A stretch of 64,000 bases of DNA from Lytechinus pictus. Taxonomy: Eukaryota. Positions 5,401-60,647 of the stretch are shown here, in pieces; position 1 is the stretch's first letter, and each line of letters starts with the position of its first letter. The position numbers were made by a program, and so were the translations under genes. The notes beneath the pieces were generated by a model. It was not told where the DNA came from and did no database searches. It saw only the letters and a program-made list of their open reading frames with translations. The stretch spans positions 10,852,001 through 10,916,000 of the forward strand of contig NC_087250.1 in NCBI RefSeq assembly GCF_037042905.1, read 5' to 3'.

Positions 5401-5645
5401 TGTGGTTTGGCGGGAAATTCAAACCCTCGCTATATCTAAGTGCAGAGTGCGTGAAAGGCCCAAAAATGTCAGCTTACCCTTCTGCAATCCGAATTTCCTC
5501 AAAATTAGCGATAGCAAAATCCAAAAGGATCCAAGGTATAAATCCTAATTCCTATATAAATCCAAAAGATAGTCCAAAATCGAAAATGAAACAGCATAGC
5601 ACAACAACTCGACTCGACTCGTATCGTGACGAGAGACGTAAACCT

Positions 5646-24341: not shown

Positions 24342-24515
24342 CTTTTCTTCACTAAGTCGCGTACCTCCCTCTTTGGCAAACGTTCCTACTAGTAGCACCT
24401 GGGGTTCATATTTCTGTCCTTCATCGGGATGCACTGCATGGGTGTACACAGACATCAACCAAAAATCTATCAAGTCCAGAATGGTTCGATGAGTTCTCAC
24501 AGCGGACCCTGGCAA
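24342..24515 (-). CDS. Roco-family gene exon (Roc G4 region)
   Basis: cag|LPGSAVRTHRTILDLIDFWLMSVYTHAVHPDEGQKYEPQVLLVGTFAKEGGTRLSEEK|gtagga; 174 nt, phase 0-0. Confidence 0.85.
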
Positions 24516-25863: not shown

Positions 25864-25902
25864 CATAGAGGTGGACAAAGCTACGCTTTATCCAACTCTA
25901 TG
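25864..25902. mobile_element. 39-bp CAT...ATG hairpin with 8-bp TSD (P-element-like footprint or micro-MITE)
   Basis: catagaggtggacaaagc-tac-gctttatccaactctatg flanked by GGCGAGCA at 25856-25863 and 25903-25910. Confidence 0.7.
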
Positions 25903-25913
25903 GGCGAGCAAGC

Positions 25914-25951
25914 CATGCACTGAACTGAAAATACGTATTTTCAGTTCAGTG
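25914..25951. mobile_element. catg plus perfect 34-bp palindrome with 8-bp TSD
   Basis: cactgaactgaaaatac|gtattttcagttcagtg; GAGCAAGC at 25906-25913 and 25952-25959. Confidence 0.65.
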
Positions 25952-27296: not shown

Positions 27297-27324
27297 CATG
27301 GACCTATTGTAATGTAGGTCCATA
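27297..27324. mobile_element. 28-bp CATGGACCTA hairpin with 7-bp TSD
   Basis: Flanked by ATATAGC twice; mirror copy at 31689-31716; empty sites at 27724-27730 and 31252-31258. Confidence 0.75.
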
Positions 27325-29667: not shown

Positions 29668-29945
29668 TATATAAGAAGAAAAGAAAAGAATAAAAGTGAA
29701 AGAATGAAACAAGAAAAGAAAAAAGAGAAAAAAAAGAAAAGAAAAGAAAAAAGAGAAAAAAAGAAAAGAAAAGAAAAACAAAAAATGAAAAAAAAAATAG
29801 AGAAAAGCGAAGAAAAACAATAGGAAAAAAAGAAAAAAAAAGAAAAAGAATAAAAGAAAAAACGAAAAAAAAAAAAAAATAACAAGAAAAGAAAAGAAAA
29901 GAAAACGGAAGAAAAGAAAAGAAAAATAACAAGAATAACAAACTG
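29668..29945. repeat. A/G-rich low-complexity tract
   Basis: (GAAAA)n-like; source of the spurious Phe-rich ORFs. Confidence 0.9.
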
Positions 29946-32032
29946 TTGAAAATGAACAAAAGCTGTGGCAAAAATAGTCAATCCTGACTGGTTGCCAACC
30001 AAGGAAAGAAGAAGATGAAGAAGAAGTTATTCATCGTTGATAAGATTGTAGGGTCTTTTTTTGTTGTTGTTGTGTTTTTAATGATTTTTATAACTGGGTC
30101 TGGAGGAAAGACCACGCTTTATTTCCATGTTATTCAAAAGAAATAGGATCGTGGGTAATTTAATTTTTTTTTCATTATTATTATTAATTTATTATTATTA
30201 TTATTCATTTGTTATTTGAAGGATCTTGGTCTTGATGAAAGACTACACTATATTTCCGTGTTATTTAACATTAATAAGATAGTGGGGGTCTTTCTTTCTT
30301 GTTGACTCTTTAAAAAATGATTTGCAATTTTGAAATAACTCGGTCTTGAGGAAAGACCACGCTATATTTCCATGTTATTCAACATAAATAGGATCGTGGG
30401 TCTTTTCTTTGTGTTTTATTATTATTATTATTATCAATTTATCATTATTATTATTCATTTGTTATTTGAAAGATCTGGGTCTGGATAAAAGACTGCGCTA
30501 TATTTTCATGTTATTGAACATCAATAAGATTGTGGGGCCTTTGTTTTATCATTAGTATTATGCATCTTTTTTTATTATTTGTTATTTTAAAATAACTGGG
30601 TCTTAAAGATTACTCTATATTTTCAAGTTATTCAACATTAATGAGAAAGTGGGGTCTTTGTTAATATTGTTCTTTATGATATGCTATTTTGAAATAAGCG
30701 GGGCTGGAACAAAGACTACACCATATTTCGATGCTAACTGGGTGTTGTGGCGTGCGCCTGTATTCCAAGCTATGTGGAAAAGTTACAAATTGATGCAGAG
30801 GTTCGAGCCCTGGTCACGTCTTTCAGATGGTAACGTTAAAGGTCAGTCCAGACGTAAATAATCATATCTGATTGATACACGTCTGTCAAATCTCAAATAC
30901 ACACACACACACACGCTATTTCAATGTCGAAAATATTGCGGGGTCTGTTTTTGGTTGTTGTTGTTTTGTTTTTGAATGATTTTTTTATAACTGGGTCTGG
31001 AGGAAAGACTATGCTATATTTACATTTTGTTCAACATCAATATAATCGTGGTGTCTTTGTTTTTTTAATATTATTATTTATTATTTTTTATTTGTTATTT
31101 GAAATATTTGGGTCTGGAGGAAAGACTACGCTAAACCTCTATGTTATTCAACATTAAGAAGATTTTTTTTTTTTTTTTTGGGATCTTTATTCGTAAGATT
31201 GTTTAAATGTTTTATATAACCGGATCTGGCAAAAAAGACTGTGACTTTTGCGCTATATGAACGCATTATTATAGGGTTTTAGTTTAGAACAGATTCGCCA
31301 AAAATCCTTTCAAATTTATAACATTTGTCGGTAAAGTGTATTATCACATTTGTGGGTGAAATTATTACACTTGTGGGTAAAGGGTTTTAGTTTTTAGTTT
31401 TAAGTAACCGGGTCTGAAGAAAAGACTATGCTTGATTCCCAATTTACTCTTAGCGCATATATTCACAATATGCGCCGTATAAGTTAAAACAATAACAAAA
31501 ACATTAATTCCACAAGTTTTAATTAATTGGGTCTGGATAATTTTTGAAATAACCGGGTCTGGAAAAAAGACTTTGGACTTATGTTATATTTTTTTAACAA
31601 CCGGGTCTGGAAAAAAGACTTTGGACTTATATATATATTTTTTTTTATTAACCGGGTCTGGAAAAGAGACTTTACTTTTGTGCTATATCATGGACCTACA
31701 TTACAATAAGTCCATGGCTATATGAATGCATTACTATAGGATTTTAGTTTAGAACGGATTCGCCAAAAATCCCTTCAAATTTATTACATTTGTGGGTAAA
31801 GTCATTATTACATTTGTGGGCGATCAAAAATTATTACATTTGTGGGTAAAGTGCATTATTACATCTGTGGGTAAAGTGTTATTAGATTTGTGGGCGTTAT
31901 TAATTTTGTGGGTAAAGTGTCATTACATTTGTGGGCGTAATTACATTTGTGGGCGATTATTACATTTGTGGGTGTAACATCCCTCCCCCTTAACTCAAAT
32001 TCATAATCCATTTTAGTTTTATTTTCTTTTAA

Positions 32033-32928: not shown

Positions 32929-33018
32929 TTCAGAATCCTCCATCCGTGGTGCTCTATCACGCAAATCGAGATGTAAAGGGAACACAAGAATGTAGAGGGC
33001 CCGCCAGGACAGAAATAG
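32929..33018 (-). CDS. Roco-family gene exon (after G3)
   Basis: aacag|LFLSWRALYILVFPLHLDLRDRAPRMEDSE|gtacgt; 90 nt, phase 0-0; matches the Roc FL..RA.Y.LVF segment. Confidence 0.85.
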
Positions 33019-33211: not shown

Positions 33212-36200
33212 GGTTACACCTCGTAGTTCCGAAGATTGGTCCAGGATATAAGAGGCATAACCTTGTTTTTTCATATATATACAATATTTTAGTTATGGTT
33301 TCTTGTCCATTCGAGGGTGCTGATTACGAATCTGAATGATGCCACTCGTTTAACTGTGAGCATTTTCCGCAAATTTGCAAAATCCAATATGGCCGCCAAA
33401 ATATGCAAATTACCCATGAAAATCATAAAATTGCCCCCACATTGACAATAAAATGCATAAAATTGTGTGGCAGGAGTGAAATACTCGCTGAAAAAATAGT
33501 TTTTAACAAAATATTTTTATCTGGATATTCAAAATGGCCGCCATAGGCCCCTGTATACTCATAATTATGTACAATATGAATAGGGAAAACTAATTTTCAC
33601 AAAAATATGCACTAAATTGCAAGAAAGTGTCATTTATGAACGAGGTACAGTATGCAAATAATCATCACTAACGAGATATATCATTTATTATGTAATGTAT
33701 GGGATAAACGAGTAGAATACTGACTAAGAACATAATTGCTAACGAACTTTATTATTTAATATGCCATGTATGTGATAAATGTTGTATTTGATATTGACAA
33801 TGGCTGCCAAAGACCCTAACAGTATTATGTACAATGAGAAAGAGGACCAAAGAAATTACAAAAGTGAGCACTAAAATGCATATATATGTGATAAAGTAAT
33901 GGGATATTGTCTATAAAAAAATATAATGAATACAAGCATTACAATCATGTAAATGGCGAAGATCTCCAACAAAATATAATTTGTGTTAAATACTGTATTT
34001 TTACTTTCAAAATGGCAGCCATAGGCATTAACTGTATTATTTATAATGGGAACTGGGAAACTTATATTCACAGGAGTGAGCACCAGAAATGCACGTAATA
34101 GTGATCTATGAGTAAAATATTGTCTGAAAGCATAATTTCTAACGAGATATATCATTTATTCTGCCAGTTAGGTGGCAAATACTGTATTTTAAAAGTCAAA
34201 ATGGCTATTACAAGCCCTTACGGTATTATTTACCATGTGAATGGGCAGGGCACTGGGAACGATTTTTTGAATGGAGGTGCAGAAGCAGGTCTAAATTCAG
34301 GGGCGGATCCAGAGTTCGCCAATAGGGGGGGGGGGAATTCACCTATATTTTCCTTGATCGGCCACTCAAAGATGATTTTTGTTTGTTTCTTCGTAAGAGT
34401 CACTTCTTTGCTTCATTCTTATAAAACATAATAATCTCATAAGCCATATTTAAATAGTGCGAGCGCGAAGCACGAGCCATTTTTTTTTTTGGGGGGATAT
34501 CATGTATCTTTTCTTGGAAATCGAACATTCTGGGCAATGTTTGTGATCCTGAACAAATTGTATATATAACTGATCGAAAGGGACTTGTTGAGGATTGTTT
34601 GTAGTTAGCCATAAAGCGAGCGCGAAGCGCGAGCTGATATTTTTTTTACATTACAACCCAAAAATGGAAATTCTAAGCATATTTCAAAATCATGGGCAGG
34701 ATAGGCATATGACTAAACAATGCGAGCGCGAAACATGAGCCGGGGGGGGGGGGAGATTTAGACCTTAAAACGGGTCACTCTATTCATGTTTTGTAAATCG
34801 TTAAATAATGGGTAAATGGGTATCGTAAATCAATAATTTGAGCGCGAAGAAAATTTTATTCTGAAACTGGGTAATTTAAGCATGTTTTAAATAAAGAAAA
34901 AGCTGTGTATCTCAAGAAACATGCGTGCGTGTGTTGAAAATTTATACCTAGTATCTGGCCATTTTGAATATCCAGAACAAAATATATTGTCAAAAATCAT
35001 TTTTTTCAGAGAGTATTTCACTCCTGCCACAAAAAGTCATGCATTTTATTGCGAAGGTGCGAATTTGTATTGCGAATGTTCGAATTTTAATGCGAATTTT
35101 GTTATTTTCATGGATAATTTACATATTTTGGCGGCCATATTGGATTTGGCCAATTTGCGGAAAATGCTCAAGGTTACACGAGTGGCATCATTCAGATTCG
35201 TAATCAGTACCCTCGAATTGACAAGAAACCATCAAAAAATATTGCAAACATGAAAAAACAAAGTTTAGACAATTTTCTATGAGGCCTTTCCTGGACTAAG
35301 ATTCGTTATTCCGAAGGTTCGTAATTCCAAAGGTTCGTAATTCCGAAACACGGAAATTGCCCATAAACCGAAAACGAAAAAGGGTTCGTTAATCCGAACA
35401 TTTGCGGCGTTATTCCGAAGGTTCATCAGTCCGAAAACGAAATAAGGTTCGTTATTCCGAAGGTTCGTTATTCCGAAGGTTCGATAATCCAAAAACGAAA
35501 TAAGGTTAGTCGTTCCGAAGGTTCGTTAATCCGAATACAAAATAAGGTTCTTTACTCCGAAGGTTCGTTAATCCGAAAATAGAATAATCGCTGGCGAAGC
35601 CGAGAAAACCGGAAGGATACGGGTGGCGGAGGGGGGGGGGGGAGAAACACCGTTGCTGTTCGATTGCTATGAGGATAGGGAGGGAAAAAGAAGGGCGGCG
35701 GAGCAAAGTAGTGTAAAGTAGACCAAAGCCTTTTTGAAGTGATTTCTGTTTTTTTGTAAGTAATATATTTAGGCTTTATTTTTCGCGAGAGAGTGTAACA
35801 AGAAAAATGTTCAAAGCTAATGTTGTAAAACTCGTTTTTTGTCAATTACTGTAATAAGGGCATACTTGGGACGTGTTCCGAACGTGAATCGTAAGCTCAA
35901 TGTTTTGGACATATCAATAAGAAAATGAAAATAAAACATTCTGAGCAGTTTTTGTTATCCTTTAAAAGATGTGCATCTAACTGAAGAATTAACACGAGCG
36001 CAAAGTGTGAGCTGAAATATACTGACCAAAGAGAAAAAATGACTGCGTTTAGTGACCCATGGATAGGAGACATCAAATAATGCGAATGCAAAGCGCCCTA
36101 CTAAACAACAACTGAAGGAAATAACCAAAAGATTTGAGATTTTATAATCTAAAATACAGACTTTAAAAAGGGTAATTCTTAAAAAACGGCACATTTTATT

Positions 36201-37664: not shown

Positions 37665-39847
37665 TAGGGGGTGGGCAAATGATATTTTTTTTAAACGGGT
37701 AGATTCTATGACAATTTTGACTGCTGAGCCCAAATCCGACATCCGTTTTGACTTACGATGTAGTTTTATATTGCTTCCTAGCGATTTTTCAAAATGGTCG
37801 CCAATTCCCTTCCAAATCAGTGTTTTATCAGGTAAATCCTTAAATATCTATACAAATAAATAAGACTTGCAGTATATCTAAATATATGTTTTCATGGTCA
37901 ATGAGCACAATAATGTATGAATCAGATAAGTTTAGTCAATTAAAATGGCGATTTTTGTGAAAAACAGCATTTTTGGGTATTTTTGGTAAAAATTGCCTCC
38001 ATATCACGATTTATGTACATAAAATCTTAATTATCTATTCATCTGTAGTTTGTTAAATGTCTAAATATTTGTTTTCATGGCCACTGAGTCCAAAAGTAGA
38101 TAAAACGGATATGTTTGGTCTTTTGTACTCTCCTTTTCAGTCAAAAATCACATTTTCTGTAATTGTTGGTAAAAATTACTGAATACAGACTGCGAATATT
38201 CATGCAACTACAGCTTGTCATCTGTCTATAATCTTGTTTTCTTGCTATTTCTAAGGCAGTTAGAAATGCATCAATTGAATTGTCAGAATTAAAAGAATCT
38301 GTACTCTAGTGGATTTTTTTTCGAATATAACTCCCCTCCCCCGAAAAAAAATATACATAAAATAATAATAATAAATAAAAACAATGCAGGATTCAAATAT
38401 TCAAATATTAGCATATCATCATGGTGATAATAAAAACACGAAAAACAAAAACAAGATTTTAAAAACTATACAAAATGCATACTGTGAGCCGATAGCATCC
38501 TGGGGAACATTTCATTAATATTTTCATCCGACAAGTTGCCAAGTCTGACAACTTTCCTTGAGAATAATTGACTGAGACTCACTGTTACCTTGGTAACTGT
38601 CGGATAAAACAGCACTTATCGGATAAACTTCTGACAAGTTCTTTCATGAAACCCTGGGTGACAGAAGATATAATGCAGTACCAACGTTTAAAGGGTTCAT
38701 AGCCAATAGATTCAGTAATTGCTTGGGAGTTTCTGTTATGCCATGAAATTAAAAAAAAAAAATTATCAATTTAGTTCATACATGTATCAACAAATTCACA
38801 GTCTCTATAATCATTCAAAATTAATGTTTCACACGCTGTTTTATACATATCTACATAATTATTGGTTATCTTGTCATATTCTCAATGATAATGATGATGG
38901 AACTGCTGGGCATCAATGAAAATGGGTAATAAGGATACTGTAGAAAAAAACATGAATAAGAATGAAAATGTCCCTTTATCCTTCATACATGTACATGTAA
39001 GTTGAGTTTAAGAAGATATGTATGCAGGCTAATCATATGTAAGACAAATACTTGCCGAGAATCAGATGCCCAAGACTGACTACTTCAGAAAATCGAACAA
39101 TAATCATGATAATGGCAACAATTCCTGTCTGTATATTTTAATTTGAGGTACGATATGTAATTTTTCAAAAGCTGGACTAACATAGTTATTGATGAACTCT
39201 TTCCAGGAAGAATATATTTGTAAATGGTGAATCAAAAAGCAAGGAGATGAGGGATCTCAAAATGCTTGGCTCACTGTTCTGTAGAGGACAATACAGTCGA
39301 ATCAGTCTTTCTTGCAACTGTATTGTTAGCATTGTACAATAAGAAGGAAAATCTATACGTATGGTCTAATGACAAAAATATTAATATTAGCAATTCTCAC
39401 AAAAAAACTGCTCCTGGGTGAAATTGTTAATCTTTGGTCCATAATAGCTCCAGTTATATTGCAGATAAGGAATGTGAAAGCAGCAGATGAACTTATGTTT
39501 AAAATTGAAGAAATCTGTGAAGAACCGGAAAGCCTCATCGAAAACACATTTACATGTATATCAGACAATAGTATCGCTGATGACATCAGCACTCTGCTAC
39601 CAAATATAGTGTAAATAATGCACATTATATTATGAATAAGCCTACATGTAGATTGCATGGCGAAATAGGAATTTAATGAAAACCCTCATTTCTGTACTTT
39701 GACAATGTTTACGAAAATGTAAATTTTCCCTTCTGTTTAACAACATAAAATGTTGTACATAAGTCTGTTATTTGATATTATTTTTTTTCTTCATTTTTTA
39801 ATAAATAATCAGGAGATATTCTCAGAAAGACTAAAAATATTCACATA

Positions 39848-39878
<31 letters not shown>

Positions 39879-39879
39879 C

Positions 39880-39931
<52 letters not shown>

Positions 39932-40650
39932 GAGGAAAATATAATGATTATGTATATACACACACACACAGCAATAATTGCATGACTTGTACGCATCTGA
40001 AATCCTGCATTGAAATTATTAGTATTTTTTTTGGAGGGGGAGGGGTAATATTTGACAAAAATCAATTAAAATACAGATTATTTTAATTCAGACAATACAT
40101 TTGAAATCTTTAACTGTATAAAAATCACAAAAAAGGAGGTTATAGACAAATTACAAGCTGTAGTTGCATGAATATTTGCAGTGTTTAGTCAGAAAATTTA
40201 CCAACAAATACAGAAAAAGTGGTTTTTGTCTAAAAAAAAGTCAGTACGAAAGACCAAACATGTCTGCTTTATTTATTGTTGGACTCATTGGCCATGAAAA
40301 CATGTATTTAGACATACAACAAACTACAAATGAACGGATAATCAAGGTTCTATGTACAAAAATCGTCATTTTGGAGCAATTTTTACCAAAAATTACCCCA
40401 AAACACTGTTTTTCACCAAATATCATCATTTAAAATGGCTTAACTTGTCTGATTCGTGTATTTGTGCGCTCAGTGACCATGCAGAAATATAGTTCGATAC
40501 ATTGCAAGCCTCATTTGTATAGATATTTAAGGATTTACATGTGAAAACTCTGATATGGAAGGAATTAGGCGGCCATTTTGAAAAATTGCTTGGAACCAAT
40601 ATCAGACGTATTCTAAAATACTTATTCGATTTGTGTTTTGCCCACACCTA
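37665..40650. mobile_element. Academ-like long-TIR element
   Basis: tagggggtgggcaaa / tttgcccacaccta ends; about 600-bp diverged TIRs (37770-38300 versus 40070-40600); no clean TSD. Confidence 0.7.
39848..39931. repeat. (TA)n microsatellite
   Basis: Direct reading. Confidence 0.95.
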
Positions 40651-41057: not shown

Positions 41058-41245
41058 TGGGTGGGTGATATAGTAAATTTCCTGTCCTCCAAAGTCCCAG
41101 ATGCTGTATGTTGTTCCGCCTTCCGAAGACTTTATGTTTGTAACCTGTCGAGTAGAAAGGGCTTTTACTAATCCATCAATTTTGGGGGTTTCCAATTTTC
41201 TTTTCTTTCCAGGTACTTGGCTTCCTCGACTAGTAAAGGGCGTGA
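41058..41245 (-). CDS. Roco-family gene exon with the Roc G3 motif
   Basis: ttccag|(2 nt)TPFTSRGSQVPGKKRKLETPKIDGLVKALSTRQVTNIKSSEGGTTYSIWDFGGQEIYYITHP|gtaagt; 188 nt. Confidence 0.9.
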
Positions 41246-43854
41246 CTGGAAATTATTCATTATGATAAAGAAAAAAAATGACAAGGTAATTTAAGATTGC
41301 AGCAATGTTGAGTTCGTGACTTCAAAATATCAAGTAGTGTCTCTTTATCAAGTTCCCTTTGAATATCTGGGGATACTAATTTTACAAACGCTCCATAAAA
41401 TATAAGAAATACGTTGTTTTTTTTTCCTTTATAGTTAGAGAAAAAAAAACATGGCCAAAGTACACTTGCTGTGTTGACTACAAACCTTGGTCACGTAGTC
41501 TGAAATTCATGCGGAATAATTAGTTAGACGTGATAACTCTGTCAACGTATCATGAAGTAGGTCTTTATATAATATTCTAAGTATTGATCATGTTGATGAC
41601 ATTTCAGAACACATGACCTTGGTTAAGATTCCAAAGTTAACGACGACGCTTTCACCGCCGCTGCCGTCGAAGAAACGGCGCCTTTATCATCTAAGTCTCG
41701 TTTTGCTATGTAGTTGAAAGTAAAGGATCGTACTGAAGATCATAAAAACTGTATTAGAACATTTCGCCAGACAACTCCCCTGGAGTCAGGTTAAATTTAG
41801 ACACCATGCACATGACCTTTTTTATTCAAACAATATCCCGAATCACCCTCCCATTTATTAACATGTTTCTAGTAAATATTGAAAAAAAAATACAAACTAA
41901 TTTGTATCGCCTTCGGAGGACACTACGCAGAACACTTTTATATTCACTGCCCCCAAATTTTGAAATTTCCTTCCTCTAAATATAAAGAGAGCTTAAGCTT
42001 AAAAACATTTCTTCTATTTTTTAGTGTTTAAAAAAGTCAAGAATTGTTTCCTTCTTACAACAACCCCCCCTTGTATATTTAATAATCATGCAAGCCCCCC
42101 CCCCCTTCATACCGTCCCTTTTCCCCATGAACTTCCTCTCATTGTTTTCCCCATATCATTCTGCTGTATCTTATTCTGTCTTCGGGAAGCCCCCACCCCC
42201 ATACTTAATGTTTCAGTTATGATTATCCCTGAAGTCCAATTCTCCGCGGTTGCTCCGTTAACACTCTCTACTTTGTATTTGTATTTGCGTTCTGTTGAAG
42301 TTATGAGCGTTCTACAAGCATGGGTTCTTAGCTGGCATTTTTTTCTCTCTCTCTCCTTTAAGCATACATCCAACTATTCATACTTTAAAAATGTTTGATT
42401 TTTTTTTTATAAAAATGATACGAGTTTACTGTATTTTGTTTATATTGACATTATCAATTTCCAACTGTGAGCTCATTATTCTTGATGATTTTTGTTTATA
42501 GTTGATTAGTATTTCTGTATTTCTGATTTCTATTTTGAAAATAGAAATAGGAGTGGGCTATAAATGGGTGTAAATTTGTTTTTGACTGTGCCAACACTTT
42601 TATTGTGTTCCTTTTATCTAATCTCAACATGAAATAACAATATTTCATTCCTCGGGTCCGATAAAAAAGAGTGCCGGGCCAAAATCCAAAATGGCCACCA
42701 ACCCCCCCCCCCAAAAAAAAAAAAATAACATTTTAGGCCACAACTTCTTTATTTGGTGGCCCTTTTTTCTGGTTTTGGTGTCTATTCATATGTTTTGGGG
42801 GCAGGCAATTTGTTTTTCCTAATATTAGTACTTTAAACCATTAATTGTTTTAAGTTAAAATGAGATTTTACTTAAAATTCTACATTTTTGGAGCCCTTTT
42901 TAGCCAAAAAGTAGGTTTCATCGTGTTGTGATTCTTGGACAATAGACGATACTTGTTGAACAGTAGCAAGCTGATCCATATAGCTATATTGCTTTCATTC
43001 CTCTAAAATTGGCGTTTACGGATACTTGCGAGATATCTTTTCAAATAAAATAATATATCATTCATTCATAGGGGTTATACGGTGTACAATGTACTGTATA
43101 TACTACACCTCATATATATCCATGCACTGACCATCATGACATACATGTATAACAAGGCCTACATGTATATAAACTATAGTGTCATGGAAATGAGCCCCTG
43201 ATGTTAAAAATTAGATTGTGAATTTGATTACTTGTCAGCTGATATACATGATGTAACCCGATGTAACATGATTTGCACACAAACACCACAAGTACAATGT
43301 AGGCTATATCATATATATGTACTTAACATTTGTTGCCATATCTTCTTCAATTTGAGGGTTTTTTTACTTGGTTGTGGTGTCTGACCCTATGTTTATGGGG
43401 TCAGGTAACTACCATGGTAATACTGATCAACAGCCAATCAGTATCAAGGATTTCATGCAAGTTACCATTGAATGGCAAAGTTAACATAATGGTAACTTTT
43501 ATGCAACAGGGCCCAGAAAAGCTACAGTGCCAAAAAAGCTACAGTGTGAATGCCATAATGTAGGGTTGACTATAATCAATTGTTAATGATATTTACCTCT
43601 CTCTGCCCCATGATTAAGTATGTTTGATCAAACATGTCTTCAATTTCTGAGACAAAACATATCTTCAATGTCAGAGGCATTCAATTACAAACATAAGAGC
43701 TTGTTTATATGACATTATAGTTTATACAGACCTTGTTATATGTCATGGCTGTGAATGCATGGACATACATGTAACTACATGTATGCAGAGAAGTATACAG
43801 TACAATAGCCTGTAGGGATAAATGGCATTTTTTTATTTAGAAAGTCAAAAAGGG

Positions 43855-43893
43855 GCCTAAGCTTTCGATCCTAGCAGAATCTTCGTCGGAGGC
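43855..43893 (-). ncRNA. Minimal hammerhead ribozyme variant (3' pLTR)
   Basis: GCCT-CCGACGA-A-GATTCT-GCT-AGGATC-GAA-AGCT-T-AGGC. Confidence 0.8.
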
Positions 43894-44483
43894 AAAATGA
43901 CAAACATATAAAGTGGAACAACCATAATATAGACCACAAACAAGCTACAGCAACACTAGAAACAAGGAGAGAAAAGGGGCATTAGTGAGTAGAGAAGACC
44001 AATCAGGTTAGTGAAGGGGATGAAAGAAAAGGAGTAGGCAGACGCAAAGGGAAGTTAGTGTAAGTAAGGCCAGTAAAAGACCTCAAGCCAAGAGGGATTA
44101 AAATAATGAGGCAGGCAACATCAAACAGGATCTGGAACAAAACAGTGATAATGGGATGAAAAACAAGAGAATTAGTGAGAGGTGGGTCAAACAGGTTACA
44201 AAGAAAGGCTTAATAAACTGGTGCATAAGAGTGGGGGGGGGGGGGGAAAGAAAAAGAATCGGGAACAACTGATAATGTGCAAAAGACATATAAGTATATA
44301 TGATAAAGCATTAAACAAACTAAGAGAAGAAGGTAAGTGTAAATATGTATCTATAAGTGATATGTATATAAATATATCCAAAAAAGAAATGTATATGAAA
44401 AAATATATAAATACACATATGGTGTAACTGATATTGTAATCCGCTAGGTGTGACGGGAAAAAAACATAAGACTATATAGTAGG

Positions 44484-44522
<39 letters not shown>

Positions 44523-44659
44523 TATATGTGAAAAAGAGGAAGCAAATTGCCTAAGAAGGTAAAAGCAAATATAGAAGAGAGGGGGTGTATTATGAAGAAA
44601 CCATAGTATACATGTAAATAAGCAAATGTGGTAAATCTAAAAGAGGTGAGTGGAGAAAA

Positions 44660-44696
<37 letters not shown>

Positions 44697-44853
44697 ATTA
44701 TTATATCGCCTGAATAAGGAAGGAAAAATTGGAGCTGAGCTTGTATGAGATATGGGAGGAAAGTAGAGTAAGAAACTATAATGTAACTATTCAAAAGAGC
44801 TGAGGGGAAAAATTATATGTATATATAAATTGAAAGTGGATAGGAAAGAAAAA

Positions 44854-47520
44854 TCAGTCGTTCCCCTCTTGGATGTTCAGGCCATGAGGTTGGGTGGTGC
44901 GAAGTCGTCTCATCCAGAGCTTCTCCCTGCTAGTACGGACTGAGTCAGGACGGGTACCTAAAGATTCGATGCCCTGTAGCATCATGTCAGTGATGGAGTG
45001 GTTGGGGAGGTTAAAATGGCGGCCAACTGGAGTGTCCAGCTTTGCTGTGTTGACGGTGGATCTGTGCCCGTAGAATCGTTTCTTGAGTGTGGTCTTGGTT
45101 TCCCCTATGTATTGTACCCTACAAACTCTGCAAGTGATGAGATATACAACATTAGTGGTAGTGCATGTGATGTTGCCCTTGATTTGGTGAGACAGGCTGG
45201 TAGAGTTGCTGGTGAAAGTATCGCCCTCGTGAAGGTGTATTTCACATATGATGCACCTGTTGCTGGTGCATTTGAAGGTGCCATGCTGTATGGGAGAAGA
45301 ATGATTAGTGAGGGAGGGCACTTTAGCACGAACAATGAGGTCCCTGAGATTCGGTGGGCGTCGGTATGCTAGAAGGGGAGTATCGGGAACGGCCTGTTGG
45401 AGACGATCAGAAGTGTGTAAAATGTGGTGGTTATCAAACAGGATTTTGCGGAGAGGGGGTAGATTGGGATGGAAGGTGGTCACAAGCGGTATTCTGTCGG
45501 TGGTCTCCTTGTCACTTTTTGGTTTGAGAACTTCAGATCTGGGGAGAGAACGAACTTTGTTAATTGCCAGTTGGACTGCCCTGGCCCCGTGGCCCCTGGC
45601 ACAGAGATGTTTCTGCAAATTCCTGGCATGGAAGGAAAAATCAGGGTCCTCGGAGCAGATACGGCGAAGTCTGAGGGCTTGACTGTAAGCGATGCCGGTT
45701 TTGCAGTGACGGGGGTGGCAGCTGGATGAGTGGAGGTACTGGTGGGTATCTGTGGGTTTAGAGTATAGGGTAGTGGTGATACCATTAGACTTTTTCTGGA
45801 CTGTAACATCAAGGAAGTGGGTTTCCTGTTGGGAGAAATCAAAAGTGAATTTGATGGTCCTGTGGAAGGAATTGATGTGGTCAATGAATGTATGGAGGCT
45901 GTCTTCATCCCTGGTCCAGATGAAGAAAATGTCGTCTATGTAACGCCACCAAATCCATGGGCGACAGGGGGCTGAATCTAACATCTGCTGTTCCAGCTTC
46001 GTCATGAAGAGACAGGCGAATGAAGGAGCCATCCGGGTGCCCATTGCTGTACCGAATATCTGTAGGTAGTGCTTGCCCATGAATGTGAAGTTGTTTTTTG
46101 TTAGTACATGAGACATCAGAGATTTGATATCGGATATGGGGGGACTGGAATGGCCACTGGCGGCCAAGGCTTCACATGATGCTTGGATACCTTCGTCGTG
46201 GGGAATGCTGGTGTACAGTGAAGAAACATCGAAAGTGCCGATGATCGCAGTCTCGGGTATCTGGTCCTTGATGTCATTAAGATTCCTGAGAAAGTCTGGA
46301 GTGTCGTGGATGTAAGAGGGTGCACGTGAGACAAGGGGCTTAATGTGGTAATCAACAAAAAGGGAGATGTTCTCTGTTGAGGAACCATTTCCTGAGAGGA
46401 TGGGTCGACCGGGGTTGCCAGGTTTGTGGATCTTCGGGAGGAGATAGAAGCGGGCAGGTTTAGCATTAGTAGGGGAGAGAAATTTGTGGGCCTTCTCAGA
46501 GAGATGCTCGTGTTCTTTCATGTCATTCAGTGTCGATTGGATCTGTAGGGAGAAATTACAAGTAGGGTCAGAATCGAGGAGTGCATAGTGAGATCGATTA
46601 TTGAGATGTTTCATGGCTTCATCGATGTACTGCTGGCGGTCCATAACAACGACGGCTGATCCTTTGTCTGCAGGCTTGATGATGATGTCGGACCTGTTTT
46701 TGAGTGATGAGAGAGCCTGGCTTTCTTCTCGAGGAAGGTTGTCATGTGCTCTGGTGTCGAGGGTATCTGTGGAGCGAACTTGGGATGAGACAGCTTGGAT
46801 GTAAGTTTCAAGGGAAGGAACTCTATTCTAAGGTGGAATCCATGTGCTTTTCTTGTAGAAGGGCTCGGGATCAAAAGGGGGTGCATCTAAAAAGAACTCT
46901 TTGAGACGTATCCTGCGATAGAATGTAGAGAGGTCTTGGCTGAGAGCTATCTGTTCAACTTCTGGTGGCGTGGGGCAAAACTTGAGACCTTTAGAGAGAA
47001 GAGAGGTTTCTGCTTGGGAGAGAGGGGAGGATGAGAGATTAACAACCAAATGGGGGGATACATCATTGTTGTTGGTATGTCGTCTAAATCTGTTTGACCG
47101 TTGTCGCTTCTTTGTGAGGTTGCCTATTTTCTTGTTCCTGCGTTCAGTGAGGAGAGACCTGTGTTTTGAGAGATCAGATTCAATTTCATCATTATACTGA
47201 AGCCATTTGGTTTGGGTACAGCAAGAACGTAGTTCGTCTTCCAGGCTACTGATGTCAGCTGAAAAAGAATCAAGAGAAGCAATACACTGTTCAGAGAGGA
47301 TGTTGATTAATCGAACTGAAGCTCAATGTAAGGTCTGGTTCCATCGTTTGCGAAGTTCAGGTGTGAGCGTACCGAGACCGGGAGTGCAATGAAGTTGGAG
47401 GCCTGTGGGTATAATGCGATTGAGGGAATAAAATCTGTAATTGTCCTGGTGAAAAGAGATCTTGAGGGCCTTCAGCTTGATCTTCCTGAGCTGGTGAAAT
47501 AAAGATAGATGGTTAGTCAT
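44854..47520 (-). pseudogene. Penelope-like polyprotein (888 codons: N-terminal domain, DKG, RT, Zn finger, GIY-YIG) with two premature stops
   Basis: One frame from ATG 47520; TGA at 47323-47325 and TAG at 46828-46830; [56 protein letters not shown]...YIGET, PHGLN. Confidence 0.9.
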
Positions 47521-47528
47521 GGTAGAAA

Positions 47529-47835
47529 AGAGACCTAGAATTAAAAAAAGTGTAAAACAAAGAAAATGGATATTCATAACAAATCAAAATATAAAGAAGG
47601 AGAAAAGTCGAGGAGATTTGAACTGGACCTAAAACAGAATGATAATAAGAATACACAAAGTTAATTAAATCAAGCTGAAAGAGACCTAGAATAAAAAATA
47701 AAAAAGGTGTAAAACAAAGAAAATGGAAATTCAAAACAAATCAAATATAAAGAATGAGAAAAGTCGAGTAGATTTGAACTGGACCTAAAACAGAATGATG
47801 ATAAGAATACACAAAGTTAATTAAATCAAGCTGAA
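47529..47835. repeat. Tandem duplication (two units of about 150 bp) in the PLE 5' UTR
   Basis: gagacctagaat...gatttgaactggacctaaaacagaatga...aatcaagctgaaa occurs twice. Confidence 0.9.
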
Positions 47836-48103
47836 AAGTAAAATCGACCAGACAAAGATACCAGAAAAAAACAAAAAACAAAGTTATGCAAGTTTAACTA
47901 TGGAAGGAAAGTAAACAAGAAAACACTAAAATACAAATACAGAAAATCAAACATATATGGATAAAACAAGACAAATTAGATAAGGAGGATCACATGGGAG
48001 TGATACAACAGCAGAATAGGAGATCAATGGCAAAAAGAAGCTGCTGAAAACTGCTTATCTAATAAAAGAGAGCCAATGGAGTAAATTAGAAAGTCAAAAA
48101 GGG

Positions 48104-48142
48104 GCCTAAGCTTTCGATCCTAGCAGAATCTTCGTCGGAGGC
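48104..48142 (-). ncRNA. Minimal hammerhead ribozyme variant (5' pLTR)
   Basis: Identical to 43855-43893. Confidence 0.8.
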
Positions 48143-48747
48143 AAAATTACAAACATATAAAGTGGAACAACCATAATATAGACCACAAACAAGCTACAGC
48201 AACACTAGAAACAAGGATACAAAAGAACCAAGAACCACATGACGATGAAACCTACTTTTTAGCTGCAAAAAGGCTCTCCAAATTAGAAAATTTAGGTAAA
48301 ATCACCTCTTAACTCTACAAATAATGGTTTAAAAGTACTTATTTAGTAAAAACGAATTGCCTTTCCCCAAAACATATGAATAGACACCAAAACCAGAAAA
48401 AAAGGCCACCAAAAATTGTGGCCAAAACTGAGATTTTGGGGGGTTTTGGCGGCCATTTTGGATTTTGGCCCGGCACCCTTTTTCTCGGACCCGAGACAAA
48501 AAATATTGTCATTTCATATTGAGATACATTAAAAGGAATAAGAAGAAAACTGTTGCTATATCAAAATGACAAAAAAGTATTTTTGACCAATGTATAGCCC
48601 ACTCCTAATATAAATAAAATAAATCAATAAAATTTAATTCAATTCAATAAATCCAACTGCAGATATTGTATTAAACTGGCGATGGCGAGGCCACGAGGGG
48701 AAAACCTAATAACGAAGGTTATCTTTAACAGTTGCAGATAATATATA

Positions 48748-49897
48748 CACTACTCAAAAAAAGTTAAGGACCACTTTTTAAAACGTACATAAAGATTTTA
48801 TACAAGGTGTTTTATTTCTGGAAATACCTCAGTACAACTGTCCTAAATGTCCTTAAACACGCTGTAATCAATTTCACGCATGGGTGGTTTCAGTTGTTGC
48901 ACAATGTCTCTCGCATCACTGCACATCCTGAAAAGTGGGCCCCGAGGGGTATCAGCTACCGACATGAAGTGGTAAAAACGAATGTCTGAGTGTCTTTCAG
49001 GCAGTTCAGTAACGAGTGTGACCACCTCCTGCAGCAATAACGGCTTCACAGCGCTGTCTCATGGAGCTGATGAGGCGATTGATGTCTCTGACGTCCAGTG
49101 CATCCCATGCAGCCTCCAGAGCCACACCCAGCTGCTGCAGTCCAAGTGGATGGGCTTCGAGCTGCTCGAGACTCCTCCCCATCATGTCCCAGACGTGCTC
49201 TATCGGGTTTAAGTCCGGGGACCTCGCTGGCCACTCCATACGCTCAATCCCCTGGCCCTCAAGGAACTCGGTCACCACCCTAGCTCGGTGGGCACGGGCA
49301 TTGTCATCCATGAAAATGATGTTTTGTCCCACATTTTCTGCAAATGGCACCACTATAGGTTCAAGGACCTCATCCCTGTACCTCACTCCTGTCATTGCTC
49401 CCCCTGGGACCACGTAGAGACGAGTACGGTTGGCGTAGGTGATGCCTCCCCACACCATGACGCTGCCTCCCCCATAACGGTCATGTTCTGCAATACAGGG
49501 GTCTGCAAATCTCTCTCCTGGTCGCCTCCAGACTCTCGAACGTCCATCATTGTGGTCAAGGGAAAATCTGCTCTCATCTGTGAACAGAACTCTACGCCAT
49601 TGCTGTCTGGTCCATCTGACATGCTCCCGGGCCCAGTTGAGACGAATTCTTCTGTGAGCAGGGGTGAGTGGGACACACTGAGCTGGCCGTCTGGCATGCA
49701 TATTGGCTCTGTGAAGTCGGTTACGGATTGTTTGAGTGGAAACAATCACTCCAGTTGCTGCAGCGAAGTCATTGTTGAGGCGGCGTGCACTGTGAAAGCG
49801 GTTGCGGAGGCTGAGATTCGTCAAGTAGCGATCATCTCTAGGGGTTGTCGAAACTGGTCGGCCACTGCGGGGTCTCTCGGAGTATAGCCCTGTCTTA
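48748..49897 (-). mobile_element. Tc1 transposon, 5'-truncated
   Basis: TA followed by TIR cactactcaaaaaaagttaagga at 48746-48770; transposase ORF; second TIR not found. Confidence 0.85.
49006..49897 (-). pseudogene. Tc1 DD34E transposase lacking the first HTH
   Basis: RSGRP, VLFTDESRF, VWGGI, DDNA-(34)-E in SPDLNPIEHVW, GGHTRY; the first roughly 26 aa of the tracked ORF come from unrelated flank. Confidence 0.88.
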
Positions 49898-50404
49898 ATG
49901 GGTAACTGGCCTCTACTGTCCCCTCCCACACCCGGTGAGTGCAGCAAAGGGACTAGATAATACGCAAACTCCACTCAGTGGAGTGGCGTTATTAACATTA
50001 TAACCATCTTTTTACACTGAAAAGGCGATGCGAGCGCAAAATGTTATTGTGATTGAGACCAAAAAGAAGAGGACATTCTGAGCTATTTTATTTTTTTGGT
50101 AATCATAAGGCTGGGTGCATTCCTAAATACTAAAGAAAATGATGCGAGCGCGAAGTGTGAGCTAAAAATGTATGATATTCAGATCTGAAAATTTATATTT
50201 TGAGCACGTTTCGATGTTTCAAAACCCATGAATCTATAAAAAAAAAGTGCGTAAAGCGTGAGGTGAAATTGTTCATATAATGACCCCCCCCCCCAAATTA
50301 AATTTTCAGCACTGTTAAATAATGTAGGCAGACTGTGAACAGGATATGGCTCTTACCAGATAAATGATGGAAGTGGAAAGTGCGAGGTATATTTTTTACT
50401 ACAA

Positions 50405-52920
50405 TTTTTGTCTCACCTGCGAAGCAGAGTGAGACTATAGGCGCCGCTTTTCAGACGGCGTCAACATCAAATCTTAAACGATGATTAAGTTTTGAAAATG
50501 ACACCATAACTTAGAAAGTATTTAGACCTAGTTCATGAAACTTTGCCATTAGGTTAATTAAGTATTACTTAACATTTTGCCTGAGTTTCAGGCCACATAA
50601 AAAGAAAGAAAAAAGAACGTCGAGGAGCTACAGGTAATACAAATATTTTGTTTGTAAAAAAAAAGGACAGCGGAGAAAATGTCGGTGCAGCAATATTATC
50701 GGGGCAGCATCATTGTCGCACTTACTTCGTGGAGCAATTGTCGATTAGGCATATTTCTTTTATTGAAAAAAATCATGTCGAAAATTAAGAGTGTTATATG
50801 TCGATTAGATTAGGAGATATGATGGTAAATGCATGTGACACCTATCATACGTCCGACCATTCCACAAATTTATAAATGAAATATTTGCGTCGTTAATTGC
50901 AAGGTTGATTCAAAGTATCAAAGTAAAACTTTTACTAAGTCAATCACCGTTCAAAAACCGAGCGCCACGCAAGATCCTATCTGTGATCCGCCATAACTTA
51001 AACATCAGAAACAAATACATGAACAAGCCTCCACAATTCACGCAACAGACGAGAAAAAAGCGGGACGTGAGTGTTCACTTAATACATTTTTTAAAGCTTT
51101 TTATTCGTCACAAAACATTGAAAATATATTTAAAAATGCGCTGCATCTTCAATCAAACAGATTGTGCCTAACATAAAACATTTCGTAAATACATCGTTTT
51201 GTACTAAAAATAACCTAACTTGAAACCTGGCCCTGCCGACAAGACAATCAATAGACCGAAAAGTGAAAAGGAGAGATTCGCGAGCAAGCACAGCTAGCTG
51301 CGTGCAGGCGGCGTGCAAGCTGCGAGAAAGCTGCAAGGATAATCTAGGATCGATTCTTCCTGTTAATCCGCTTTAATCTGTGCAGCGCGCCGCCGCTAGC
51401 TGCATCTAGCGGCGAGATACATCCTGTTCACTAATCACCGCAGTGGGGGTGTGCCCGCGGGTTACACGCTGCCAATACAATATGGATGTGCTCACTAAGT
51501 TCAAAGCTCATTTAGGGTCAATGAACTTAGACAATTTAAAATGTCATCGTAACTTACAAAATATATTGACCTAGTTCATAAAACTTGGCCATAAGGTTTA
51601 TCAAGTATTTCTGAACATCCTGCCTGAGGTTCAAGACACATGATCTAGGTAGAAGGTCATGTAGGGTCAATGAACTGTGGTCAGATTTGGGGTTTCTGTT
51701 GAATTACCATCATAACTTTGAAAGTTTATGGATCTGAACATCCTGTGCGAGTTTCAGGTCACATGGTTTGTTGAATTACCATCAAAACTTTGAATGTTTA
51801 TTGGTCTAGTTCATAAAATAAGAGTAATCAAGTATCATTGAACATCCTGTGCGAATTCCAGGTCACATGACCAAGGTCAAAGGTCAATGAACTTTGGCCA
51901 TGTTGGGGGTATCTGATGAATTACCATCATAACGTTGAGAGTTATGGATCTGATTCGTGACACTTGGACAAAAGAGTAATCAAGTATCACTGAACATCCT
52001 GCGCGAATTTCAGGTCACATCACCAAGGTCAAAGGTCAATGAACTTTGACCATGTTTGGGGTATCTGTTGAATTACCATCATAACGTTGAGAGTTATGGA
52101 TCTGATTCGTGACACTTGGACAAAAGAGTAATCAAGTATCACTTAACAACCTGTGCGAGTTTCAGGTCACATGACCAAGTTCAAAGGTCAGTGAATTTTG
52201 GCCTTGTTAGGGGTATCTGATGAATTACCATCATAACTTTAAAAGTTTATGAATCTGATTCATGAAACTTGGACAAAAGAGTAATCAAGTATCACTGAAC
52301 AGCCTAGGCGAAGTTCAGGTCACATGACCAAGGTCAAAGGTCAATAAACTTTGGCCATGTTTGGATATCTGTTGAATTACCATCATAACTCTCAAAGTGT
52401 ATTGGTCTAGTTAATAAAACTTGGCCATAAGAGTAACAAGAATCACTGAACATCCTGTGCGAGTTCCAGGTCACATGACCGAGGTCAATGGACTTTGGCT
52501 ATGTGGGGGGGGGGGTATTTGTTGAATAACCATCATAACTCTGAAAATATGGATCTAGTTCATAAAAACTTTGACATAAGAGTAATCAAGTATGACTGAA
52601 AATCTCATGCGAGTTTCAGGTGACAAAGGTCATTAAACTTTGGCCATTTTGGAGGTAATTATTAGATTGCTTTCATAAATTTCAAAGTTTATAGATATAG
52701 TTTATAAAATGTGGAAATAGGGGTAATCAAGTATCACTGACAAGTCTTAGGTTGCATGATCAAGGTCAAATGTCATTTACTGTCAATGAACGTAGTATTG
52801 TATTATTATATGAAAGGTATTTTTTGTGAATAATTATTTTATAGTAGTTTTCAAAGTCAGCACTGTTGCTATATTAAATCGCGCGATGCAGATGAGACTG
52901 CCAGAGGCGCTCCACTTGTT
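50405..52920 (+). mobile_element. Helentron-associated (HINE/DINE-1-like) element with tandem core
   Basis: tttttGTCTCACCTGC with adjacent inverted gcagagtgagac; 3' subTIR GCAGATGAGAC (52888-52898) then short tail to acttgtt; about 152-bp tandem units at 51490-52790; related heads near 8610-8760 (+) and 41640-41720 (-). Confidence 0.65.
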
Positions 52921-59700: not shown

Positions 59701-59844
59701 AATATCATATTGATGCCCCAAATGTCGAATATCAATTTGGCATCCCCTCCCTAGGTTAAACAGAAATTTGGCACCCAAGGTCAAACATCGAATTGGCGCC
59801 TGAAAGGGCGGATATGAAATTGGTGCCACTCTCCCTAGGTTAAA

Positions 59845-60422
59845 AGGGATGGTCCGGGCTGAAAATATTTATATCTAAAAAAATAGATAAAAATTCGCAG
59901 AGCAAAATGCTGAAAATTTCATCAAAATCGGATAAAAAATAACGAAGTTATTGAATTTTAAAGTTTATCAATATTTTTTGAAAAGTTATATGCACATTGT
60001 CAAAAATATTCATCCCCACTTTCCTATTTTTTTATGTTATTACATGAAATCATAAATGTTTCATTTGTTTTACATGTGTAATTGATGTGTCTCCATCACG
60101 ATGACATGAGTTGCGGCAATAAATAACTAATGCAACTTATCAGTTGTCAATCCAATTGTTTTAGTTCTTGGAAATCTTTTTTTAATAAACCTAATTTCAT
60201 ACTAAAAAATACAAAAGAACAAGTGGGTATATGACATCATCAGCCCATCTAATGAATATTCATAAAGACATGCATAGAACTGTTTCACCGGAATAATACA
60301 AATCGTTAAAATTCAATAACTTTGTTATTTGTGATCCGATTTTGATCAAATTTTAAGCATTTTGCTTTGTGAATTTCACTCTATTTATTGAGATATAAAT
60401 ATTTCCAGCCTGGACCATCCCT
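59845..60422. mobile_element. Kolobok-like MITE
   Basis: agggatggtccgggctg.aaatatttatatc versus gatataaatatttccagcctggaccatccct; TIR over 100 bp; taaa/ttaa flanks. Confidence 0.8.
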
Positions 60423-60647
60423 TTAAAATGAATTTTGCGCCCCCAAACAAATATAAAATTGGCGCCCCTATGTCGAACATCAATTCGGCGCCCCTCTGTA
60501 GAACATCAAGTCGGCGCCCTCCAGTTTGAACATGAATATGGCGCCCCCCCCCCCCCATGTTCGAATATCAATTCAGCGCTCCCTAATTTAACATCAATTT
60601 GGGGCCCTCCTAGTTCCAACATCAAATCGGCACCCGGGTCAACATAT

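What the first reader, a model, noticed from the sequence alone, without database searches (positions are those of the whole stretch)
43837..48217. Complete Penelope-like unit bounded by twin variant hammerheads
Seen: identical 39-nt motifs 4249 nt apart in the sense direction, with a CCGACGA core (U4C), 4-bp stem I, 6-bp stem II, and stem III reduced to the palindrome AGCU, with predicted cleavage after CUU. Known: PLE pLTRs encode minimal hammerheads that can cleave as dimers. Inference: the two copies could pair in cis and release a unit-length RNA of about 4.25 kb from the co-oriented host pre-mRNA, if this region is intronic. That would also cut the host transcript.
Basis: partly seen in the sequence, partly recalled or inferred. 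Interest (0 to 1): 0.7.

Follow-up and report, generated by a model that had tools for sequence, protein, structure and literature searches.

The report
Penelope retrotransposon with twin hammerhead motifs
A young but broken Penelope-like jumping gene in a sea urchin carries, in both end repeats, the small self-cutting RNA motif already known from such elements; its one oddity is a family-wide change in the catalytic core that probably weakens cutting, and nothing found shows that it cuts the neighbouring host gene's RNA.

Summary
Observation confirmed, on the minus strand: two identical 39-nt minimal type-I hammerhead motifs (43893-43855, 48142-48104; 4,249 apart) sit in the 140-nt pseudo-LTRs of a Neptune/Nematis-type Penelope-like element (RT, Zn-finger linker, GIY-YIG). 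The ORF has two in-frame stops private to this copy, so it is complete in layout but coding-dead. Six related loci keep the same fold with a canonical U4 and a co-varying stem-III palindrome; the CCGACGA (U4C) core is the major form of this young family. Hammerheads in pLTRs, dimer cleavage, unit release and circles were all proposed in 2014. A co-oriented Roco (Roc-COR) host gene has three in-phase exons downstream; the element probably lies in its intron, but no upstream exon was found. Against efficient cis-release: U4C lowers activity in a viroid ribozyme, the dimer has no computed energy gain, genomic copies end 22 or about 80 nt past the cut site (so uncut or re-ligated RNA is the template), and two RNA runs show no end pile-up at the sites and thin, patchy ORF coverage. 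Verdict: ordinary new member of a known kind with a mildly interesting core variant.

The parts
48086..48225 (-). 5' pseudo-LTR (second-round, 5'-truncated copy of the element's 3' end)
   Evidence: 140-nt direct repeat, 98% identical to 43837-43976
48104..48142 (-). Upstream minimal type-I hammerhead motif, core CCGACGA, predicted cut after 48108
48028..48085 (-). 'Tail' downstream of the hammerhead; most family copies end near 48028; holds a motif (AAGCAGTTT.CAGCAG) shared with related families
   Evidence: heterogeneous loose ends at 48028 in 64 and 101 reads; alignment A2; homology of L004, L007 ends at the same place
47521..48027 (-). T-rich 5' leader with a 156-nt tandem duplication (47527-47680 / 47678-47836, 92%)
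   Evidence: an intron here is possible but no canonical donor was found
44854..47520 (-). Single ORF, 888 codons: N-terminal domain, GxKF and DKG motifs, RT, CX4CxxC linker, GIY-YIG endonuclease with CCHH; two in-frame stops (47325-47323, 46830-46828) private to this copy
   Evidence: all laid contigs and reads that cover the two places differ from the window there
43977..44853 (-). 3' UTR, pyrimidine-rich, with (TA)n and poly(T) tracts
43837..43976 (-). 3' pseudo-LTR; element ends 22 nt past the predicted cut site
43855..43893 (-). Downstream minimal type-I hammerhead motif, identical to the upstream one, predicted cut after 43859
42548..42938 (.). Left arm of an older foldback/MITE-like repeat in which the element sits
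   Evidence: 77% inverted match to 48228-48607; no target-site duplication found
48228..48607 (.). Right arm of the same foldback repeat, directly abutting the 5' pLTR
41058..41245 (-). Host Roco gene exon A (mid-Roc, WDFGGQ motif; phase-1 acceptor, no Met), 2.6 kb downstream of the element
   Evidence: Pfam Roc E 6.6e-4, below the curated cut-off; tblastn with sea urchin Roc-COR proteins; splice sites
32929..33018 (-). Host Roco gene exon B
24342..24515 (-). Host Roco gene exon C
   Evidence: 36 of 39 residues identical to L. variegatus LOC121417254 (P0133); splice sites

Best explanation
A recent, structurally full-length but coding-dead copy of a young Neptune-type Penelope-like retrotransposon family of a sea urchin (nearest named proteins: Lytechinus), inserted into a foldback repeat, probably in an intron of a co-oriented Roco gene. 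How it works: the family's RT-endonuclease nicks AT-rich DNA and starts reverse transcription inside its RNA, 22 or about 80 nt downstream of the hammerhead cut site; most events truncate within a few hundred bases, leaving very many solo hammerhead-bearing ends; here synthesis ran through the whole unit and about 140 nt into a second round, which is why there are two identical hammerheads one unit apart. The template therefore held an uncut or re-ligated hammerhead. The motif is the known minimal, dimer- or protein-dependent hammerhead, weak in vitro, and the family's U4C core probably weakens it further, so at this locus cutting of any host pre-mRNA is expected to be rare and without a role. 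Shown: anatomy, family-level conservation, end positions, private stops, host exons. Inferred: intronic position, transposition steps (from PMC11167929, PMC4209133), weak activity.
For: pLTR-ORF-pLTR layout; RT E 7.4e-9 and GIY-YIG E 3.7e-4; invariant DKG, CX4CxxC and CCHH in 10 aligned proteins; 93-96% identity to L. variegatus proteins over 37-65% of the query, 88% full-length to P0002. Six of 10 related loci show the same motif, 95 of 96 cells paired, 15.2-16.2 palindrome in four pair types. Contig X2-3 (43847-44150, depth 131.5) differs at only 3 places, none in the motif; contig X2-6 (44531-47600) has 15 substitutions and 6 gaps in about 3,070 nt. Summed contig depth in X5 falls from 19,544 (43847) to 8,488 (43971), 3,861 (44044), 1,214 (44102), 485 (44260) and about 90-280 over the ORF: a 5'-truncation gradient. 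Heterogeneous ends at 48028. Dimer -16.1 against two monomers -17.2 kcal/mol; stem I probability 0.27 and 0.09 in context. Low activity of min-HHR dimers (PMC4209133), protein-assisted cleavage dispensable for insertion (PMC11167929), U4C lowers activity in vitro (PMC3088659 passage). No begin/end pile-up at 43859 or 48108 in two RNA runs (table 6).
Against: The fold is kept across families with compensatory change, so the motif is under selection somewhere in the cycle. The U4C viroid variant still works in vivo (PMC3088659). The RNA runs were read at about 6% each, come from other individuals with only the same species label as a holder, are fragmented libraries poor at showing 5'-OH or cyclic-phosphate ends, and the Roco gene may be silent in them. 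A ligated circle as template explains the end positions equally well. Neptune versus Nematis was not tested by a tree with named references.
Confidence: 0.8

Rival explanations
1. One reading: the two hammerheads pair in cis in the Roco pre-mRNA, cut at 48108 and 43859, release a 4,249-nt unit RNA (possibly circularised) and measurably damage or regulate the host transcript.
For: Co-oriented host exons with intact phases; exon A has no Met and a phase-1 acceptor, so upstream exons are needed; both motifs intact and identical; palindrome co-varies among relatives; dimeric constructs cleave weakly (PMC4209133).
Against: No upstream exon found, so intronic status is inferred; no energy gain for the active dimer and a competing stem II duplex at -25.4 kcal/mol; U4C; RNA depth over the ORF averages 5.0 and 3.5 with bins at 0-1, against about 125 over 43902-44168, and about 1 on unique flanks; no end pile-up; the insertion is recent (about 0.5-1% from family contigs), so no time-tested host role.
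Confidence: 0.07
2. In this family the hammerhead is catalytically dead (U4C fixed by drift); the hairpin persists only as a protein-binding or RT-initiation structure, and the family spreads without cleavage.
For: C4 is the major form in a young, very abundant family while 6 of 6 related loci and 44 of 44 alignment rows read in part 2 of the 2014 supplement keep U4; cleavage was dispensable for insertion in vitro (PMC11167929); Naiad PLEs spread without hammerheads (bioRxiv 10.1101/2021.04.23.441226, passages).
Against: All other core positions are kept; a natural U4C hammerhead supports viroid infection (PMC3088659 passage); the 2014 descriptor required U4, so its rows are biased.
Confidence: 0.3
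3. The family's hammerheads do cut and re-ligate in vivo with help of the element's protein, and unit circles are the normal RT template; this copy is the footprint of one lap plus 140 nt on such a circle (a property of active masters, not of this dead copy's host transcript).
For: Ends 22 and 80 nt past the cut site and near-identical pLTRs fit a circle; model proposed in PMC4209133; protein-assisted cleavage shown in PMC11167929.
Against: Tandem read-through or a template jump gives the same layout; PMC11167929 found unprocessed RNA to be the main substrate and no reads ending at the site; no even unit-length RNA coverage here.
Confidence: 0.2

Closest known systems
Minimal hammerheads (min-HHR) in pLTRs of metazoan Penelope-like elements (Cervera and de la Pena 2014, PMC4209133; Results and Discussion and supplement file 2 part 2 read)
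   Same: Type I, short stem I, long stem II, extra base between 9 and 10.1, G10.1-C11.1, palindromic 15.2-16.2 with no loop 3, U-rich 5' flank, U17 common, one copy in each pLTR; sea urchin examples already listed (S. purpuratus CUGACGAA).
   Different: Position 4 is C (CCGACGA), not U; not among the rows read there.
Neptune/Nematis clades of EN+ Penelope-like elements (features from Craig et al. 2021, PMC8557442 and its preprint, passages)
   Same: Single ORF with RT, DKG, CX2-5CxxC linker, C-terminal GIY-YIG with CCHH, partial tandem forming pLTRs, optional tail.
   Different: This copy has two nonsense codons; tail about 58 nt rather than 30-40; not inserted in a (TA)n tract; no inverted 5' copy.
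Poseidon element of Anolis carolinensis (Frangieh et al. 2024, PMC11167929, main text read)
   Same: pLTR hammerhead; two end classes downstream of the cut site that define a tail.
   Different: Different clade (no Zn-finger linker); there the ORF starts inside the hammerhead, here about 590 nt downstream.
Natural U4C hammerhead of a viroid (one passage in Perreault et al. 2011, PMC3088659; the original paper not seen)
   Same: Same core change.
   Different: Viroid ribozyme has a full stem III and tertiary contacts; here the change sits in an already minimal motif.

Membership tests
EN+ Penelope-like element | Single ORF with reverse transcriptase and DKG motif | tested here: met
   Pfam RVT_1 E 7.4e-9, 36.1 bits, cut-off 29.6; D286-K287-G288 invariant
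EN+ Penelope-like element | C-terminal GIY-YIG endonuclease with CCHH | tested here: met
   Pfam GIY-YIG E 3.7e-4, 21.2 bits, just under the 22.6 cut-off; Y794, C798, C801, Y805, G807, H820, H836 invariant in 10 sequences
EN+ Penelope-like element | Partial tandem forming direct pseudo-LTRs | tested here: met
   140-nt repeat, 98%
EN+ Penelope-like element | Intact coding capacity (autonomous copy) | tested here: not met
   Two in-frame stops, absent from other copies; lowers 'active copy', not family membership
Neptune/Nematis clades | CX2-5CxxC Zn-finger-like linker before the endonuclease | tested here: met
   C752, C757, C760 invariant; feature from PMC8557442
Neptune clade | RT phylogeny with named Neptune and Nematis references | not tested
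   No labelled reference sequences were available from the tools; 'Neptune' rests on the long linker and on recall
Metazoan min-HHR | Core CUGANGA...GAAA...UH | tested here: not met
   One position departs (C at 4); the others match. Hence a variant, not a canonical member
Metazoan min-HHR | Extra base between 9 and 10.1; G10.1-C11.1; short stem I; palindromic 15.2-16.2 | tested here: met
   G-C 8 of 8; palindrome pairs GC 4, AU 1, CG 1, UA 1, unpaired 1; 0 of 500 shuffles reach the covariation score (8 related rows, two from the window, so modest weight)
Metazoan min-HHR | Self-cleavage as dimer or with protein | not testable with these tools
   Only indirect: no end pile-up in two RNA runs
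Non-LTR retrozyme | Non-coding tandem repeats with a hammerhead in each unit | tested here: not met
   The unit is 4,249 nt and holds the RT-EN ORF; definition from bioRxiv 10.64898/2026.07.22.740005
Roco (Roc-COR) host gene | Roc G3 region and following Roc/COR exons | tested here: met
   three exons match S. purpuratus and Lytechinus proteins with Roc and COR-A hits
Roco (Roc-COR) host gene | P-loop exon upstream, placing the element in an intron; COR exons downstream | tested here: inconclusive
   not found in the window; the sea urchin models used as queries lack the P-loop themselves

The most novel reading that the evidence does not exclude
A young, highly amplified Penelope family has fixed an attenuating U4C core as an adaptation that lets thousands of sense-strand copies sit in host introns while cleavage occurs only when two copies meet or the element's protein binds; this full-length copy then lets the Roco pre-mRNA act as donor of a 4,249-nt unit circle that active copies can mobilise in trans.
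Probability: 0.08. Interest if true: 0.6.

Novelty: new member of a known kind. Interest (0 to 1): 0.22.

Why it matters
The role of Penelope hammerheads in vivo is still open. This family offers a small natural experiment in a model-organism genus: a core change (U4C) known to slow cleavage is the major form of a young, very abundant family, while its relatives keep U4, and copy ends lie beyond the cut site. That fits the view that efficient cleavage is not needed for spread. The element type, the twin motifs and the unit-release idea are all published, and intronic copies are common, so the locus itself is ordinary.

Tried and rejected
No whole genome was held, so no genome-wide census of position 4, orientation bias in introns or empty-site allele could be made. 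Rfam gave no hammerhead hit. Motif scans of viral contigs gave 0 matches and of prokaryote genomes 1 match, a chance hit lacking the stem I flanks inside what looks like bacterial coding sequence. The run search listed no holder on record as RNA: no evidence either way. A word-index protein search with exon A found nothing; the full HMMER search did. Searches for an upstream Roco exon by motif, profile of distant Roc N-termini, splice-site scan and tblastn all failed; Pfam on 103 chosen reading frames (86 minus-strand, 17 plus-strand, a subset of those in the window) showed only exon A as a host hit. No target-site duplication. No hammerhead near the second Penelope ORF at 5857-7428. No canonical 5' intron donor; one search listed no splice joint in the element among the 15 of 42 joints shown. 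Strand of the pLTR RNA could not be read because the library direction is not known. Luense, Weinberg and Breaker (dimer cleavage) could not be read; it is known here only through the review PMC6765202 and may already list U4C variants. Supplement file 1 of PMC4209133 was not searchable. A literature search for hammerhead plus U4C gave one paper; for Penelope hammerheads in Lytechinus none relevant among 20 listed of 729. The exon-tethering search was seen as a listing only and is not used as evidence. Rejected: retrozyme (has an ORF), LTR element (repeats are a partial tandem of the 3' end), recoding of the two stops (other copies have sense codons).
Full report
Observation. The finding is real and lies on the minus strand. 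Two identical 39-nt motifs occupy 43893-43855 and 48142-48104, 4,249 nt apart. Each reads stem I (GCCU/AGGC), core CCGACGA, one unpaired A, a 6-bp stem II with a 3-nt loop, GAAA, GC, UU, so that A15.1-G-C-U16.1 is the palindrome AGCU and the predicted cut follows U17 at 43859 and 48108. They sit in a 140-nt direct repeat, 43837-43976 and 48086-48225, 98% identical. A descriptor scan found these 2 hits in the window and none in 40 shuffled windows. The fold is not unusually stable (z -0.28) and Rfam did not detect it.

The element. Between the repeats is one ORF of 888 codons, 47520-44854, with two in-frame stops. [quoted passage not shown] In an alignment with nine relatives the DKG motif, a CX4CxxC linker and the CCHH motif are invariant, the features that PMC8557442 (passages) gives for the Neptune and Nematis clades. 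The nearest named proteins are from Lytechinus variegatus (93-96% over part of the query) and L. pictus (94% over 213 residues), so the host is most likely a Lytechinus sea urchin. The element sits inside an older foldback repeat (arms 42548-42938 and 48228-48607, 77%) without a target-site duplication.

Conservation of the motif. Of 10 related loci from metagenome contigs, 6 contain the motif; the other four show none by this scan, and at least L002 and L006 end before the place where it would lie. All 6 have U at position 4 (CUGAAGA four times, CUGAGAA, UUGAUAA). Across these and the two window copies, 95 of 96 cells of the named structure pair, stem II has one compensatory change, and the 15.2-16.2 positions appear as GC (4), AU, CG, UA and once unpaired; 0 of 500 shuffles reach the covariation score, with the caveat of few, related rows.

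The family in reads. Two RNA runs (about 6% of each read; 2,812 and 2,867 reads laid) and two contig sets were laid on 42300-50300 at 88% likeness (40 of 383 variant rows, 15 of 42 joints and 24 of 701 loose ends were shown). A 304-nt contig of depth 131.5 covering the downstream motif differs at three places, all outside it, and no core position is among the rows shown; so CCGACGA is the major form of this family, although minority U4 copies are not excluded. A 3,076-nt contig over the ORF has 15 substitutions and 6 gaps; both stops are absent from everything that covers them. The family is thus young and this copy is coding-dead. Summed contig depth in run X5 drops from about 19,500 at the motif to 8,500, 3,900, 1,200 and 490 at 43971, 44044, 44102 and 44260, and to about 90-280 over the ORF: not a copy number, but the profile of many 5'-truncated insertions. 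Heterogeneous loose ends cluster at 48028 (64 and 101 reads, agreement about 0.5), 80 nt past the cut site; the window's own 3' end lies 22 nt past it. L004 and L007 end like the long class, L001 like the short one. This matches the two internal initiation sites and 'tail' of PMC11167929 (main text read). It also means that a linear RNA cut at both hammerheads cannot have been the template: the template was uncut or re-ligated.

Host gene. Three in-phase exons with canonical splice sites lie on the minus strand at 41245-41058, 33018-32929 and 24515-24342. They match sea urchin proteins with Roc and COR-A domains, exon C at 36 of 39 residues to L. variegatus LOC121417254. Exon A has a phase-1 acceptor and no methionine, so coding exons should lie upstream; none was seen in the 1.3 kb of unique DNA before the foldback repeat or elsewhere in the window, and the later COR exons were not found in the 24 kb downstream either. 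The element is co-oriented, 2.6 kb upstream of exon A, and probably intronic (my estimate about two in three); a broken gene is not excluded.

Would the two motifs cut the pre-mRNA in cis? Probably seldom. The active dimer geometry computes to -16.1 kcal/mol against -17.2 for two monomers, a stem II duplex competes at -25.4, and in context stem I forms with probability 0.27 and 0.09 (nearest-neighbour model only). Min-HHR monomers showed no cleavage and dimers low cleavage in PMC4209133; the Anolis motif cleaved only with protein, was not needed for insertion, and no reads ended at its site; U4C 'considerably decreases activity in vitro' in a viroid ribozyme though it suffices in vivo (PMC3088659, passage). 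In the RNA runs the only end pile-ups listed are at 49354, 44236 and 48165, none at 43859 or 48108; depth over nine ORF bins averages 5.0 and 3.5 with bins at 0-1, against about 125 at 43902-44168, and is about 1 on unique flanks. The pLTR reads are best read as passengers from many solo copies. This is weak negative evidence: other individuals, fragmented libraries, unknown strand direction, and the host gene may be silent there.

Comparison with what is known. Hammerheads in both pLTRs, the extra base, the palindrome, dimer action, release from precursor RNA and circular templates are all in PMC4209133 (2014), which lists sea urchin examples; U17 is common there, and all 44 alignment rows in the supplement part I read have U4, though its descriptor demanded that. 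The review PMC6765202 (passages) restates the model. In Xenopus 42-44% of retrozyme copies overlap introns, with some depletion (bioRxiv 10.64898/2026.07.22.740005, passages). Earlier notes of this scan report similar ordinary cases in this genome and others; they are unchecked leads and were not used as support. What I did not find in print, in searches, is a Penelope family with a fixed U4C core; the Luense et al. paper, which I could not read, may contain one.

Verdict. A new member of a known kind: a young, coding-dead, full-length Neptune-type element with the usual pLTR hammerheads. The family-wide U4C core is a modest, testable variant. The proposed effect on the host transcript is possible in geometry but unsupported.

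Noticed in passing
P0125 and P0129 (L. pictus gene models): Both models fuse ORF pieces of this same Penelope family to the homologous Roc exon of a different Roco paralogue (about 52% identical exon), and P0129 ends in antisense sequence of the family. So another Roco locus seems to carry copies at a similar place; chance in a repeat-rich gene cluster or a preference is open.
   Followed up: partly
window 48075-48028 (minus), L004, L005, L007, L010: A short motif (AAGCAGTTT.CAGCAG) about 50 nt downstream of the cut site is conserved among divergent families just before the usual copy end; candidate protein-binding or RT-initiation element.
   Followed up: partly
window 43889-43883 and 48138-48132: The variant core contains two CpG dinucleotides; C-to-T decay at position 4 would return old copies to the canonical CUGA core. 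Not checked in data.
   Followed up: no
L005:~465-535: This relative shows an intron-like GTAAGT...CTACAG stretch ending just before its ATG; the window element has an acceptor-like site 14 nt before ATG but no clear donor.
   Followed up: partly
window 5857-7428 (minus): A second, unrelated Penelope-like ORF (RT and GIY-YIG, no Zn-finger linker before the endonuclease, P/T-rich C-terminal tail), 5'-truncated, no hammerhead found.
   Followed up: partly
window 685-5418 (minus): LINE with ORF1-like pieces and an endonuclease-RT ORF (Pfam).
   Followed up: no
window 49006-49974 (minus): Tc1/mariner transposase next to the element; strongly one-stranded RNA coverage of 25-80 in both runs, and other copies diverge from the window at 49895.
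   Followed up: no
window 15147-17614 (plus): Decayed gag/pol-like remnant by eye (LTR-retrotransposon-like); no Pfam hit for the frame tested.
   Followed up: no
window 25090-26718, 27113-31829, 33288-35239, 37763-40607, 59840-60427: Several long foldback repeats, some with internal tandem subunits of 110-135 nt, in the Roco introns; 152-nt tandem array at 51820-52700.
   Followed up: no
L001:2830-3571: The element's 3' end runs into what looks like a bacterial gene; probably a chimeric metagenome contig.
   Followed up: no
window 53723-53500 (minus): Acceptor-like site followed by a 75-codon open frame of unknown nature; no Pfam hit; not shown to belong to the Roco gene.
   Followed up: partly
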